The translations under genes were made by a program, and so were the position numbers. From a virus (Duplodnaviria; Heunggongvirae; Uroviricota; Caudoviricetes): a stretch of 10,615 nucleotides of DNA. The notes beneath the pieces were generated by a model. That model was not told where the DNA came from and ran no database searches. It saw only the letters and a list, made by a program, of their open reading frames with translations. This document shows, in pieces, positions 1 through 4,768 of this stretch (positions are counted from its first letter, which is position 1; each line of letters opens with the position of its first letter). Location of the stretch: IMG/VR virus record IMGVR_UViG_3300028991_000014, positions 1-10,615 of that record. One strand, given 5' to 3'.

Positions 1-135
1 TTCCTGGAAACGGGCGCGCTAATCGAAAAGGATCGGCATGGATTTGTCAGATGTGCGCTATCCGGTGAAATGCTGGCAGTAAATCCTGAACAGATAGATG
101 CATTGATAGAATTTCTGAAAGGGATCAGGGACTGA
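1..135 (+). CDS. hypothetical protein, C-terminal fragment (gene enters the window from the left)
   Basis: Frame 1 is open from base 1 to TGA at 133-135 (...EFLKGIRD*), followed directly by a hairpin/T-run terminator. The 44 aa give no recognisable family. Confidence 0.4.
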   Translation, partial: FLETGALIEKDRHGFVRCALSGEMLAVNPEQIDALIEFLKGIRD

Positions 136-145
136 GCACCCATAC

Positions 146-179
146 AGCCGGAGCAATCCGGCTTTTTGTAATTTTTTGT
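146..179 (+). terminator. intrinsic terminator downstream of the partial upstream ORF
   Basis: Stem AGCCGGA (146-152) / TCCGGCT (157-163) with GCAA loop, followed by TTTTGTAATTTTTTGT (164-179). Confidence 0.55.
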
Positions 180-291
180 AAATTATTTGTTCGTGGTCGT
201 TCCACGTTGTTCATTGACCGGATCGGCATATTTTACCCGCCCTGAATCATGATTATTCTCGCCAGTGGTGCCAGGACGCTGGGGCCACTTT

Positions 292-333
292 CCCGCCTGT
301 TAATGTGCTCACCAATATTCATTACCAGGCGGG
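292..333. promoter_or_regulatory. 14-bp inverted repeat with 14-bp spacer upstream of the capsid gene (operator or RNA-structure candidate)
   Basis: CCCGCCTGTTAATG (292-305) and CATTACCAGGCGGG (320-333) are reverse complements with one mismatch. No T-run follows on either strand, so it is not a simple terminator. Confidence 0.3.
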
Positions 334-389
334 AAAACGATCGGTGCGATTGCTGATTTCCTTATGAAAAACGGTTGAGTTTTTGCCGC

Positions 390-427
390 GTCCTGGAGTT
401 CCTTACTTAACCCCAGGACTTTTTTTT
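390..427 (+). terminator. terminator-like hairpin plus T8 abutting the capsid start codon (possible regulated terminator or attenuator)
   Basis: Stem GTCCTGG (390-396) / CCAGGAC (413-419) with an inner GTT/AAC extension, followed by TTTTTTTT (420-427) and then ATG at 428. Confidence 0.3.
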
Positions 428-1585
428 ATGCCGAGAATAATCGAATTACGCCAGCAGAAAACCGCCATTAAAAATCAGATGCGCGACATGCTGGAGAACG
501 CGGAAAAAGAAAACCGCAGCCTTAACGATGCAGAGGGCGCAAAATTTGACGAATTACGCGCTAAAGCTGAATCCCTCGATAAAGACATTTCCCGCCTTGA
601 AGCCATTGCAGACGAAGAGCGCAGCAAGCCAGGTAAAAGCAGCCAGACCACTGACCCGGCAGAACTCCGCAACTACATCCTGACAGGTGAAACCCGCGCA
701 TTAAGTACAGGTGTCCCCGCTGATGGTGGTTATACCGTTATCCCTGAACTGAACACCGAAATCATGCGAATGCTGGCGGATGAGTCCACCATGCGCCGCA
801 TCTGTACCGTGAAAAAAATCAGCAGCAACGAGTTTAAGCAGCTTGTTTCCGCTGGCGGTGCGGTCGTTAACCACGGTGAAGAGGGTAAGGCACGCGAACA
901 GACCAGCACCCCGCAGATTAACGAGGTGAGCATTAAGCTGTATCCGGTCTATGCGTACCCGCGCACCACACAGGAAATCGTGGATTTTTCCGATGTGGAC
1001 ATCCTTTCATGGCTGACGGGCGAGATTGGCGACACCTTCACGGAAACCGAAGAAAGTGATCTGGTTGTGGGCGACGGTGACAAAAAAGCAAAAGGTTTTT
1101 TATCCGTACCCCGTGCAGAGAAGAACGACAAAGAACGTGATTTCGGAACGTTGCAGGTTATCAAGCCCGTTGATGATCTTGCCTGGACATCTGCGGACCC
1201 GCTGATCGATCTGAAATTTGCATTACGTAAAAAATACCGCAAGAACGCGGTATGGGTGGTTAACTCCACGACGGCGGCAAAACTCCAGAAGGTGAAGAAT
1301 GCGAACGGGGATTATATATGGCGTGACCGTTTACAGGCGGGTGATCCTGACACATTGCTGGGCCTTCCGGTCGAATATCTGGAGTTTATGCCGGATAACG
1401 TTATTGCCCTGGGCGACTTTAAACGCGGTTACTACATCGTTGATCACGAAACAGGTGTTCGCACCAGACCGGACAACCTGACAGAACCAGGATTCATCAA
1501 AATTTTCACGCAAAAATATTTAGGCGGTGGCGTGGTGGATTCGAACGCGATCAAGATTCTGGAACTGCCACAGGACGACGATTAA
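428..1585 (+). CDS. phage major capsid protein, HK97 family
   Basis: 385-aa product with a charged, coiled-coil-like N-terminal segment (delta-domain-like) followed by a capsid-type body; sits at the head of a protease/portal gene set. The ORF track begins at TTG 383; ATG 428 is chosen as start, but there is no clear SD so the start is uncertain. Confidence 0.8.
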   Translation: MPRIIELRQQKTAIKNQMRDMLENAEKENRSLNDAEGAKFDELRAKAESLDKDISRLEAIADEERSKPGKSSQTTDPAELRNYILTGETRALSTGVPADGGYTVIPELNTEIMRMLADESTMRRICTVKKISSNEFKQLVSAGGAVVNHGEEGKAREQTSTPQINEVSIKLYPVYAYPRTTQEIVDFSDVDILSWLTGEIGDTFTETEESDLVVGDGDKKAKGFLSVPRAEKNDKERDFGTLQVIKPVDDLAWTSADPLIDLKFALRKKYRKNAVWVVNSTTAAKLQKVKNANGDYIWRDRLQAGDPDTLLGLPVEYLEFMPDNVIALGDFKRGYYIVDHETGVRTRPDNLTEPGFIKIFTQKYLGGGVVDSNAIKILELPQDDD

Positions 1586-1595
1586 CAGCATACAG

Positions 1596-1620
1596 AAGGG
1601 GCTAAAAAGCCCCTTTAGTG
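1596..1620 (+). terminator. hairpin between capsid and protease genes (possible partial terminator or attenuator)
   Basis: Stem AAGGGGC (1596-1602) / GCCCCTT (1609-1615) with TAAAAA loop, followed by an interrupted T-run (TAGTGTTTTATG). Confidence 0.3.
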
Positions 1621-4645: not shown

Positions 4646-4768
4646 TGAGGCAGCCGGACGGGGTGGGGGGAGTTTTCAGGACGAACCCGACCCCGCCCAG
4701 AACCGACCGCCTCCCCAAATTTTTATGCACGGTAATTTTTTGAAAAATAATCTGGCGAAAAAATAAGC
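4646..4768. other. candidate cos (cohesive-end / terminase recognition) region
   Basis: Non-coding gap between the HNH region and terS with a G-run GGACGGGGTGGGGGGAG (4656-4672) followed by C-runs CCCGACCCCGCCC (4686-4698) and CGCCTCCCC (4708-4716). Position matches where HNH-dependent cos phages carry cos. Confidence 0.4.

What the first reader, a model, noticed from the sequence alone, without database searches (positions are those of the whole stretch)
292..333. Long inverted repeat (14-bp arms, 14-bp spacer) upstream of the capsid gene
CCCGCCTGTTAATG and CATTACCAGGCGGG are reverse complements with a single mismatch, about 95 bp upstream of the capsid start and not followed by a T-run. The geometry suits binding by a dimeric regulator or formation of an RNA stem-loop in the leader. 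Together with the flanking terminators it suggests a regulated entry point to the packaging operon.
Basis: seen in the sequence. Interest (0 to 1): 0.4.

Follow-up and report, generated by a model that had tools for sequence, protein, structure and literature searches.

The report
Hairpin in satellite capsid leader RNA
The inverted repeat is real. It is the middle stem-loop of a conserved structured leader RNA, not found in Rfam or the papers searched, that lies between a weak promoter and a terminator just ahead of the capsid gene of a phage satellite (cf-PICI), so it most likely belongs to an RNA switch gating capsid expression and is not a protein-binding site.

Summary
Observation confirmed. 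The arms extend to 17 nt (289-305 / 320-336) with one U·C mismatch and a 14-nt loop, and this is the only such repeat in the window. The window is an EcCIEDL933-like capsid-forming PICI of E. coli. In about 100 distinct leaders from related cf-PICIs the same position holds a hairpin whose sequence and loop length differ between lineages but whose pairing is kept: 11 of 12 pairs show compensatory changes. Within the E. coli type, changes in the arms are only C-to-U wobbles, while the loop takes substitutions and a 4-nt insertion. This fits an RNA stem on the + strand and argues against a dimeric-protein operator. The hairpin (SL2) sits between SL1 (264-289, invariant GACG loop) and SL3 (390-419 plus U8), an intrinsic-terminator-like hairpin that abuts the capsid ATG and contains its Shine-Dalgarno. 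Part of SL1 (271-279) is perfectly complementary to the 5' arm of SL3 (388-396), and this long-range pairing covaries in three lineages and encloses SL2. Best reading: a terminator/antiterminator leader switch with SL2 as its structural core. The effector, the transcription start and the switching itself are inferred. No Rfam family matches, and the cf-PICI papers read do not mention it.

The parts
146..170 (+). Intrinsic-terminator-like hairpin plus T-run ending the upstream operon (74-aa ORF, stop codon 133-135)
   Evidence: Terminator scan. Sequence. Annotation of the near-identical locus.
174..212 (+). Conserved box TTTTGTAAATTAT followed by phased TTGTWC repeats starting at 176, 187, 197 and 207. 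Putative activator or architectural site upstream of the capsid promoter.
   Evidence: Present at a constant distance of about 93 nt from SL1 in most lineages that carry SL1, and ahead of the promoter-like element in short-leader lineages. Function inferred.
232..259 (+). Weak sigma-70-like promoter, TTTACC-N16-TATTCT. Inferred start at A264/G265.
   Evidence: The pattern TTTACN-N16-TAnnnT sits in the same register in the lineages aligned by eye. It is below the threshold of the consensus scan. The start site is inferred, not measured.
264..289 (+). SL1: 5'-terminal stem-loop with an invariant GACG tetraloop (275-278). Acts as anti-antiterminator in the model.
   Evidence: Fold -17.2 kcal/mol, z = -3.6. 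Compensatory changes in both of its stems across lineages.
289..336 (+). SL2: the reported inverted repeat. It is a stem of 10 bp + U·C mismatch + 5 bp (290-305 paired with 320-335; U289·A336 can add a 17th position, but 289 is also used by SL1) with a 14-nt loop, and forms the central hairpin of the leader.
   Evidence: Positional homologue with covarying arms in related elements. A covariance model built without this lineage lays the repeat on its SL2.
271..279 (+). CCAGGACGC: 5' strand of the long-range antiterminator helix. It overlaps the upper stem and loop of SL1.
   Evidence: Perfect 9-nt complement of 388-396. Covaries with its partner in three lineages. It is the minimum-energy pairing of nascent transcripts ending at 396-412.
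364..378 (+). Mini-ORF ATG AAA AAC GGT TGA in the linker. Found only in E. coli-type leaders, with no Shine-Dalgarno. Role unknown.
388..396 (+). GCGTCCTGG: 3' strand of the long-range helix. Bases 390-396 are also the 5' arm of the terminator.
390..427 (+). SL3: terminator-like hairpin (390-400 / 409-419, 11 positions with one mismatch, 8-nt loop) followed by U8. The Shine-Dalgarno AGGA (415-418) lies in its 3' arm.
   Evidence: -14.1 kcal/mol, z = -5.0. Substitutions in related E. coli elements keep or improve the pairing.
428..1585 (+). Major capsid protein gene, first gene of the packaging module.

Best explanation
The inverted repeat is an RNA hairpin (SL2), the central stem-loop of a roughly 165-nt structured 5' leader of the capsid/packaging operon of a capsid-forming PICI. 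The leader is probably transcribed from a weak promoter (TTTACC-N16-TATTCT, 232-259) and starts at about 264. It can adopt two folds. State A is SL1 (264-289) + SL2 + SL3 (390-419 followed by U8). SL3 is an intrinsic terminator that ends transcripts just before the capsid AUG and also buries the Shine-Dalgarno. In state B, CCAGGACGC of SL1 (271-279) pairs with GCGUCCUGG (388-396). This takes away the 5' arm of the terminator and leaves the Shine-Dalgarno free. SL2 forms in both states and lies inside the long-range helix. It keeps the roughly 100 intervening nucleotides compact, so state B closes a multibranch loop and not a large open loop. The exposed, invariant GACG loop of SL1 would serve as the toehold for pairing with the invariant CGUC downstream. 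State B is predicted to be favoured while the polymerase is between 396 and 412, and state A once the 3' arm of SL3 is made. The outcome would therefore be kinetic and open to control by an unidentified factor. Shown computationally: the repeat, the three stems, their covariation, the complementarity and the predicted energies. Inferred: the promoter and start site, that switching occurs, its effect on termination and translation, and the existence of an effector.
For: Element identity: int, alpA, primase, PerC-like gene, capsid, protease, portal, connectors, HNH, terS and terL, inserted in tqsA. SL2 conservation by structure: on a MAFFT alignment of 42 leaders, 7 of 8 SL2 pairs show double changes. 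Across the SL1+SL2 structure tested, 97% of cells are paired against 83% in shuffles and 32-52% when partners are slid. On 58 leaders aligned to a covariance model, 11 of 12 SL2 pairs show double changes, and all five measures beat 500 of 500 shuffles. There are 26 distinct basal stems among 53 leaders, all near-perfect. A model built only from other lineages finds window 263-366 as its best hit (21.8 bits, E about 9e-5) and aligns the repeat to its SL2. Within the E. coli type, all 4 variable stem pairs are C-to-U changes giving G·U, while the SL2 loop carries 3 substitutions and a 4-nt insertion. Long-range helix: the pair at alignment columns 17-136 is U-A in 33 sequences, C-G in 7 and G-C in 2, with none unpaired, and the GACG/CGUC core is invariant. 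It is the predicted minimum-energy fold of nascent transcripts in the window and in most other lineages tested, while the full leader prefers SL1+SL3 by about 9 kcal/mol. Blocking SL2 removes the predicted preference for state B, a shift of 2-3 kcal/mol. The whole leader folds with z = -5.4.
Against: There is no transcript data, so the start site is inferred and the promoter is too weak for the consensus scan. Covariation of the long-range helix rests on only three lineages, that is two independent events, and its variable columns are also tied to SL1 pairing. Most other lineages have no U-run after SL3, and in the L027 lineage SL3 does not clearly cover the Shine-Dalgarno. The output of the switch therefore cannot be the same everywhere. 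At equilibrium the full leader is predicted to be in the off state, and no effector has been identified. The G·U versus A·C asymmetry in SL2 across the family is only 12 to 5. The predicted energetic contribution of SL2 is modest.
Confidence: 0.6

Rival explanations
1. SL2 is a passive RNA element. It would be a stabilising, folding or processing hairpin of the capsid mRNA leader that protects against RNases or spaces the other stems, with no part in any switch. The SL1/SL3 complementarity would then be incidental or serve another purpose.
For: The structure is conserved but the sequence and loop are not, as expected for a purely structural hairpin. The predicted energetic effect on the alternative fold is small. 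Some cf-PICI lineages manage with a roughly 40-nt leader that has no SL1-SL3.
Against: SL2 always comes together with SL1 and the CGUC segment, whose complementarity covaries. In the window lineage a canonical terminator that needs bypassing lies downstream.
Confidence: 0.2
2. SL1 and SL2 together (264-336, 73 nt) form a put-like cis-acting RNA that binds the transcribing polymerase. This would make it resistant to the terminator at 390-427 and to the one after the capsid gene (1595-1616).
For: The geometry matches HK022 put: two adjacent stem-loops of about 70 nt starting at the transcript's 5' end, upstream of terminators.
Against: The leader covariance model R1 gives no match at HK022 putL, and no resemblance to putL was seen on reading its sequence. 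The sequence and interior of SL2 vary freely, which is unlike a surface that must dock on RNA polymerase. The covarying SL1:SL3 complementarity is not explained.
Confidence: 0.1
3. The repeat is a DNA operator bound by a dimeric regulator of the satellite (for example AlpA or the PerC-like protein) or of the helper phage.
For: There is a near-perfect dyad close to a promoter. AlpA- and PerC-family regulators are encoded in the left part of the element.
Against: Arm sequences differ between lineages while pairing is kept. The spacer is 14-49 nt across the family, and 14 versus 18 nt within the E. coli type with identical arms. The centre-to-centre distance of about 31 bp is atypical for a dimer. 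Arm polymorphisms are G·U-compatible on one strand only. The site lies downstream of the inferred start.
Confidence: 0.05
4. The repeat is a chance repeat or a DNA-level hairpin (cruciform, single-strand initiation or packaging signal) unrelated to expression.
For: The element replicates and is packaged, and hairpins can serve such roles.
Against: A chance origin is unlikely. The position is fixed relative to the promoter and the capsid start in many lineages. By gene order the cos site is expected between the HNH and terS genes, far from here (own knowledge of HK97-type packaging).
Confidence: 0.03

Closest known systems
Terminator/antiterminator/anti-antiterminator leaders (transcription attenuators and protein-dependent antiterminator leaders such as bgl/sac RAT, pyr, trp)
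   Same: A promoter-proximal leader carries an intrinsic terminator just before the first gene. An upstream segment is complementary to the terminator's 5' arm. A third structure (SL1) sequesters that segment.
   Different: No leader peptide, T-box, known aptamer or RAT-like motif was found, and no Rfam family matches. The antiterminator is a long-range helix spanning about 110 nt and enclosing a separate hairpin (SL2). In most sister lineages the last stem has no U-run, so the output there would be translational or something else.
Lambda PR'-6S RNA-tR' late-gene control by Q
   Same: A short leader transcript ends at a strong terminator placed in front of the virion structural genes, so structural-gene expression needs read-through (own knowledge).
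   Different: The element has no annotated Q-like gene. No conserved -10-like pause element was seen by eye in the first 25 transcribed bases. The leader carries its own covarying alternative pairing, which Q-dependent systems do not need.
HK022 put RNA (processive antitermination by a nascent RNA)
   Same: Two adjacent stem-loops of about 70 nt at the 5' end of the transcript, upstream of terminators.
   Different: The leader model gives no match at putL and no resemblance was seen by eye. The second stem here is free to vary.
Satellite phage P4 immunity (CI RNA pairing with seqA/seqC in the leader causes premature termination)
   Same: A phage satellite controls an operon through RNA-RNA complementarity within or against a leader transcript and through premature termination (own knowledge).
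   Different: No P4-type CI RNA was found (no Rfam hit). Here the complementary segments are in cis, and the controlled operon is the capsid/packaging module that P4 lacks.

Membership tests
Capsid-forming PICI (cf-PICI, EcCIEDL933 type): the element that carries the feature | int, alpA and pri-rep genes plus its own capsid, protease, portal, head-tail connectors, HNH, terS and terL. About 15 kb, with no tail or lysis genes. | tested here: met
   Annotation of the 99.4%-identical E. coli locus. AlpA and PerC Pfam hits. Family description in 10.1101/2022.09.08.507074.
cf-PICI capsid leader RNA (SL1-SL2-SL3 family defined here) | A stem-loop with a GACG tetraloop at the inferred 5' end, immediately followed by a long hairpin, upstream of the capsid ATG. 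| tested here: met
   The covariance model built without the window lineage hits 263-366 as its top hit (21.8 bits, E about 9e-5) with the repeat aligned to SL2. The weaker model R1 gave only 10.5 bits.
cf-PICI capsid leader RNA (SL1-SL2-SL3 family defined here) | A downstream CGUC-containing segment complementary to the loop and one arm of SL1. | tested here: met
   271-279 / 388-396, a 9-nt perfect complement. GACG and CGUC are invariant and the flanking pair covaries.
Transcription attenuator / terminator-antiterminator leader | An intrinsic terminator (GC-rich hairpin plus U-tract) between the promoter and the first gene. | tested here: met
   390-419 hairpin, -14.1 kcal/mol, followed by U8. 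Termination itself was not measured.
Transcription attenuator / terminator-antiterminator leader | A mutually exclusive alternative helix that uses the terminator's 5' arm, with evidence of selection. | tested here: met
   Support comes from only three lineages.
Transcription attenuator / terminator-antiterminator leader | An identified sensor or effector (leader peptide, tRNA, ligand, RNA-binding protein). | tested here: inconclusive
   There is only a 4-codon mini-ORF without a Shine-Dalgarno, absent from other lineages. No Rfam aptamer. No trans complementarity found in the element.
Operator for a dimeric DNA-binding regulator | Half-site sequence conserved among elements and a fixed half-site spacing. 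| tested here: not met
   26 different basal stems. Spacer of 14 to about 49 nt across the family. A 4-bp spacer insertion within the E. coli type with the arms unchanged.
HK022 put RNA | Sequence and structure similarity to putL/putR. | tested here: not met
   The putL region was read. The leader model gives no hit there. Only the two-stem geometry is shared.
HK022 put RNA | Acts on the RNA polymerase beta' zinc-binding domain to give processive antitermination. | not testable with these tools
   Needs in vitro transcription or rpoC mutants.
Q-type (lambda, 82, 21, P. aeruginosa AlpA) antitermination site | A Q-family protein encoded by the element, plus a binding element and a -10-like pause site at the promoter. 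| tested here: inconclusive
   The PICI AlpA is a 62-aa PF05930 protein. P. aeruginosa AlpA has functional residues up to at least position 142, and to my knowledge it is an unrelated protein that shares only the name. No conserved TAnnnT was seen by eye in the first 25 transcribed bases. A helper-phage Q cannot be excluded.
Any Rfam family | Match to a curated covariance model. | tested here: not met
   Nothing near significance at the leader in the window or in six related loci.

The most novel reading that the evidence does not exclude
The SL1-SL2-SL3 leader is a new class of riboregulator. Through it a phage satellite would license synthesis of its own capsids only when a specific trans-acting factor is present, either from the helper phage or induced in the satellite. 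That factor would recognise the invariant GACG loop or the SL1/SL2 junction and lock the antiterminated fold. Alternatively, SL1 and SL2 would themselves modify RNA polymerase. Either way this would be an RNA-level checkpoint coupling the satellite's capsid production to the helper's cycle.
Probability: 0.25. Interest if true: 0.7.

Novelty: new member of a known kind. Interest (0 to 1): 0.5.

Why it matters
How cf-PICIs time and control expression of their own capsid and packaging genes is not addressed in the two cf-PICI papers read here. Neither text contains the words promoter or terminator, and the second also lacks transcript, leader and UTR. A conserved promoter-proximal leader with a terminator abutting the capsid start, and a covarying alternative pairing, gives a concrete hypothesis that can be tested by mutation. 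Capsid production would be gated after transcription initiation by an RNA switch, and the reported hairpin is its structural core. The leader is also a candidate new cis-regulatory RNA family and a sequence marker for the many cf-PICI capsid modules that carry it.

Tried and rejected
- **Rfam searches** of the window leader and six related loci found nothing relevant.
- **Phage-collection BLAST** with the window leader found no match. The main-lineage leader matched only three records, which look like cf-PICIs.
- **HK022 put:** the putL region was read and searched with the leader model, and showed no similarity.
- **AlpA as a Q-like antiterminator:** rejected. The characterised antiterminator AlpA of P. 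aeruginosa is a much larger protein than the 62-aa PF05930 AlpA of PICIs.
- **More lineages for the long-range pair:** a viral-contig pattern scan found only the A and C variants already seen. A metagenome scan for SL1 variants was saturated by chance GC-rich hits and was uninformative.
- **Trans-acting partner:** a search of the element for a copy of the 9-mer found nothing above chance.
- **First covariance model:** with a sparse RNAalifold structure it gave only a marginal hit in the window (10.5 bits). A model with the full structure did better. With default filters in a larger search, the window lineage did not pass E <= 0.01.
- **Consensus promoter scan:** it found no promoter in 1-700. 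The promoter proposed here rests on conservation only.
- **RNase III site:** rejected as the main role, on my own knowledge of RNase III substrates, because SL2 in most lineages is a 12-bp stem capped by a three-way junction.

Full report
**The observation.** CCCGCCTGTTAATG (292-305) and CATTACCAGGCGGG (320-333) are complementary except for T300 opposite C325, with 14 nt between them. It extends by TTT/AAA to 17-nt arms at 289-305 / 320-336. It is the only repeat of this strength in the 10.6-kb window. Only 2 of 60 dinucleotide-preserving shuffles contain any repeat with 14-nt arms, at most one mismatch and a 3-40 nt spacer. As RNA it folds at -22.6 kcal/mol (z = -5.6). No ORF of 40 aa or more that lies wholly within the window overlaps it on either strand, and no T-run follows it. 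It ends 95 nt before the capsid ATG at 428.

**The element.** Bases 1-1600 are 99.4% identical to an E. coli chromosome and 95.9% identical to O157:H7 genomes. The annotated locus shows a roughly 15-kb island inserted in tqsA. It carries an integrase, a 62-aa AlpA-family regulator, a primase, SSB, a PerC-family regulator, small ORFs, then capsid, prohead protease, portal, head closure, connector, HNH, terS and terL, with no tail or lysis genes. This is the architecture of the capsid-forming PICIs typified by EcCIEDL933. The leader region 170-430 is present at 92.7% identity or more in 360 of 5426 complete E. coli genomes.

**Anatomy around the repeat (+ strand).**
- The upstream 74-aa ORF stops at 133-135 and is followed by a terminator (146-163 plus Ts).
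- A box TTTTGTAAATTAT (174-186) follows, with TTGTWC repeats every 10-11 nt up to 212.
- Next is a weak promoter-like element, TTTACC-N16-TATTCT (232-259).
- SL1 (264-289) has the arrangement GUGG-UG-CCAG-[GACG]-CUGG-GG-CCAC.
- The repeat, SL2 (289-336), comes immediately after SL1.
- A 50-nt linker contains a 4-codon mini-ORF (364-378).
- SL3 (390-400 / 409-419) is followed directly by U8 (420-427) and the ATG at 428. The only Shine-Dalgarno-like sequence, AGGA (415-418), lies in the 3' arm of SL3.
- SL3 plus U8 has the form of a canonical intrinsic terminator. The simple scan missed it, probably because of one internal mismatch.

**Related elements.** The capsid protein was used to fetch upstream regions from five other genera in reference genomes, and from 160 IMG/VR loci, some of which recur between the two searches. 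About 100 distinct leaders share the same layout.
- A nearly invariant SL1 (GUGGC-A-CUCA-[GACG]-UGAG-CC-GCCAC) comes first.
- Within 0-4 nt there is a long hairpin in the position of the reported repeat.
- A short C-rich linker follows.
- The last stem lies just before the ATG.

The hairpin at the SL2 position has a different sequence and a different interior in each lineage. Examples of its arms are GGCCGUUUAAUC/GAUUAAACGGCC, GUCCACCCGG/CCGGGUGGAC, GUCCACCUGG/CCAGGUGGAC, GCCGCCUGAC/GUCGGGCGGC, GCCCGCCCC/GGGGCGGGC and GACCGUUUAAU/GUUAAACGGUC. There are 26 distinct basal stems among 53 leaders, and the loop or junction ranges from 14 to about 49 nt.

**Covariation of SL2.**
- On an ordinary MAFFT alignment, RNAalifold recovers SL1 and SL2. 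Seven of the 8 SL2 pairs show changes on both sides. Across the SL1+SL2 structure tested, 97% of cells are paired against 83% in shuffles and 32-52% when partners are slid. In that alignment the 3' arm of the window lineage is misplaced, so those numbers speak for the other lineages.
- On 58 leaders aligned to a covariance model, 11 of 12 SL2 pairs show double changes. All five measures, including the two strict ones, exceed all 500 shuffles.
- That model was built only from other lineages. It finds window 263-366 as its best hit in the window (21.8 bits, rough E of 9e-5) and lays the repeat on its SL2 stem.

**RNA or DNA, and which strand.** Within the E. coli type (8 distinct sequences), the four variable stem pairs in SL1, SL2 and SL3 are all C-to-U changes that give G·U. 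One further C-to-U change, at an internal A·C mismatch of SL3, creates an A-U pair. None breaks a pair. The 14-nt SL2 loop carries three substitutions and a 4-nt insertion. G·U is tolerated only in RNA read from the + strand, because on the other strand these would be A·C mismatches. Across the family the SL2 stems hold 12 G·U against 5 A·C positions, a weaker signal in the same direction. A change of spacer length with the arms intact, arms that differ between lineages, and a half-site distance of about 31 bp are all hard to reconcile with a dimeric DNA-binding protein.

**The switch.** CCAGGACGC (271-279; 5' arm and loop of SL1 plus the first base of its 3' arm) is a perfect complement of GCGUCCUGG (388-396), and the last seven bases of that segment are the 5' arm of SL3. 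In the main lineages the corresponding pairing is AGACGUGA / UCACGUCU. In the L060 lineage it is GACGGGA / UCCCGUC. GACG and CGUC are invariant. The flanking pair (alignment columns 17-136) is U-A in 33, C-G in 7 and G-C in 2 sequences, with none unpaired. Pairs in the outer stem of SL1, which take no part in this helix, also covary (G-C to A-U). Both folds therefore appear to be under selection.

Folding predictions agree with this.
- For transcripts ending between 396 and 412, the long-range helix enclosing SL2 is the minimum-energy structure.
- Once 413-419 is present, SL1 plus the terminator is more stable by 7-9 kcal/mol.
- The same holds for most other lineages tested.
- If SL2 is prevented from forming, the predicted preference for the long-range helix in the nascent transcript disappears, a shift of 2-3 kcal/mol. 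This fits a role as a strut that shortens the loop the helix must close, though the effect is modest.

**Mechanism proposed.** Transcription starts at the base of SL1, and SL1 and SL2 fold first. When CGUC emerges it can nucleate on the open GACG loop and displace the upper stem of SL1. This forms the antiterminator and leaves the 3' arm of SL3, with the Shine-Dalgarno, unpaired. If SL1 re-forms in time, SL3 folds, transcription ends in the U-tract one base before the AUG, and any read-through message has its ribosome-binding site buried. The equilibrium fold is the off state, so a factor that stabilises the long-range fold, or slows SL1 re-formation, would be needed for full expression. That factor is unknown. 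In sister lineages without a U-run, the same rearrangement could act on translation or stability only. In the L027 lineage even Shine-Dalgarno occlusion is unclear. The common output is therefore the least certain part of the model.

**Comparison with known systems.** No Rfam family matches. The logic is that of terminator/antiterminator/anti-antiterminator leaders, but with a long-range antiterminator around an internal hairpin and without a recognisable sensor. The layout of promoter, short leader, strong terminator and structural genes recalls lambda PR'-6S-tR'. No Q-like gene is annotated in the element. The PICI AlpA is a 62-aa PF05930 protein, whereas the antiterminator AlpA of P. aeruginosa is much larger. 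SL1 plus SL2 resemble HK022 put in size and position, but there is no similarity of sequence or model. The two cf-PICI papers read do not mention a promoter or terminator for the packaging module, and the founding PICI paper describes only AlpA autoactivation.

**Verdict.** The 'RNA stem-loop in the leader' and 'regulated entry point' readings are supported, and the 'dimeric regulator' reading is not. The hairpin itself is an ordinary kind of object. Its interest lies in belonging to a conserved leader RNA, not found in Rfam or the papers searched, that probably gates capsid synthesis in a widespread family of phage satellites.

Noticed in passing
window 174-212: Box TTTTGTAAATTAT followed by TTGTWC repeats starting at 176, 187, 197 and 207 (11, 10 and 10 nt apart). 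The box is found in most cf-PICI lineages examined, and in SL1-bearing ones it lies about 93 nt from SL1. It looks like the site of an activator or architectural protein for the capsid promoter.
   Followed up: partly
window 390-427: A terminator-like hairpin with U8 directly abuts the capsid ATG (428) and contains its Shine-Dalgarno (415-418). Every capsid transcript must pass through it. The simple terminator scan missed it.
   Followed up: yes
window 1595-1616: A second terminator-like hairpin (GAAGGGGCT...AGCCCCTTT followed by a T-rich tail) lies right after the capsid stop codon (1585), before the protease gene. It is possibly a partial terminator that sets the ratio of capsid to other proteins.
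   Followed up: no
window 364-378: Mini-ORF ATG AAA AAC GGT TGA in the leader linker, with no Shine-Dalgarno. It occurs only in E. coli-type leaders. A variant (AAG CGT) keeps the frame and the stop codon.
   Followed up: partly
window 1-135 and L001 11911-12135: A 74-aa protein of unknown function (phrog_1957, no Pfam hit) is encoded directly upstream of the capsid leader. Similar C-terminal sequences appear upstream of the leader in several, but not all, other lineages.
   Followed up: partly
L001 11513-11785 and 6543-6731 (left part of the same element, outside the window): A PerC-family transcriptional activator (PF06069, E = 1e-43) and a 62-aa AlpA (PF05930). These are candidate regulators of the capsid promoter. 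PerC homologues regulate the LEE in pathogenic E. coli (own knowledge).
   Followed up: no
L041, L042, L049, L050; L046, L051, L052; L006, L057, L068, L082, L084 (upstream of capsid ATG): Other cf-PICI lineages have different leaders. One type is a roughly 40-nt leader without SL1-SL3. A second type is a long leader in which a long-range helix encloses a hairpin (followed by a U-run in L051 and L052). A third, AT-rich type has a UAGACUGC...GCAGUCUA hairpin and a repeated AGCGCAG.
   Followed up: partly
window 4646-4768: The intergenic gap between the HNH gene and terS is where an HK97-type cos site would be expected. It was not examined.
   Followed up: no
main-lineage leaders, e.g. L063 1385-1445: In most lineages SL2 is a three-way junction, not a simple hairpin. 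It has two small covarying inner hairpins and a conserved AGAAAAAG strand, and the E. coli-type element has lost this interior.
   Followed up: partly
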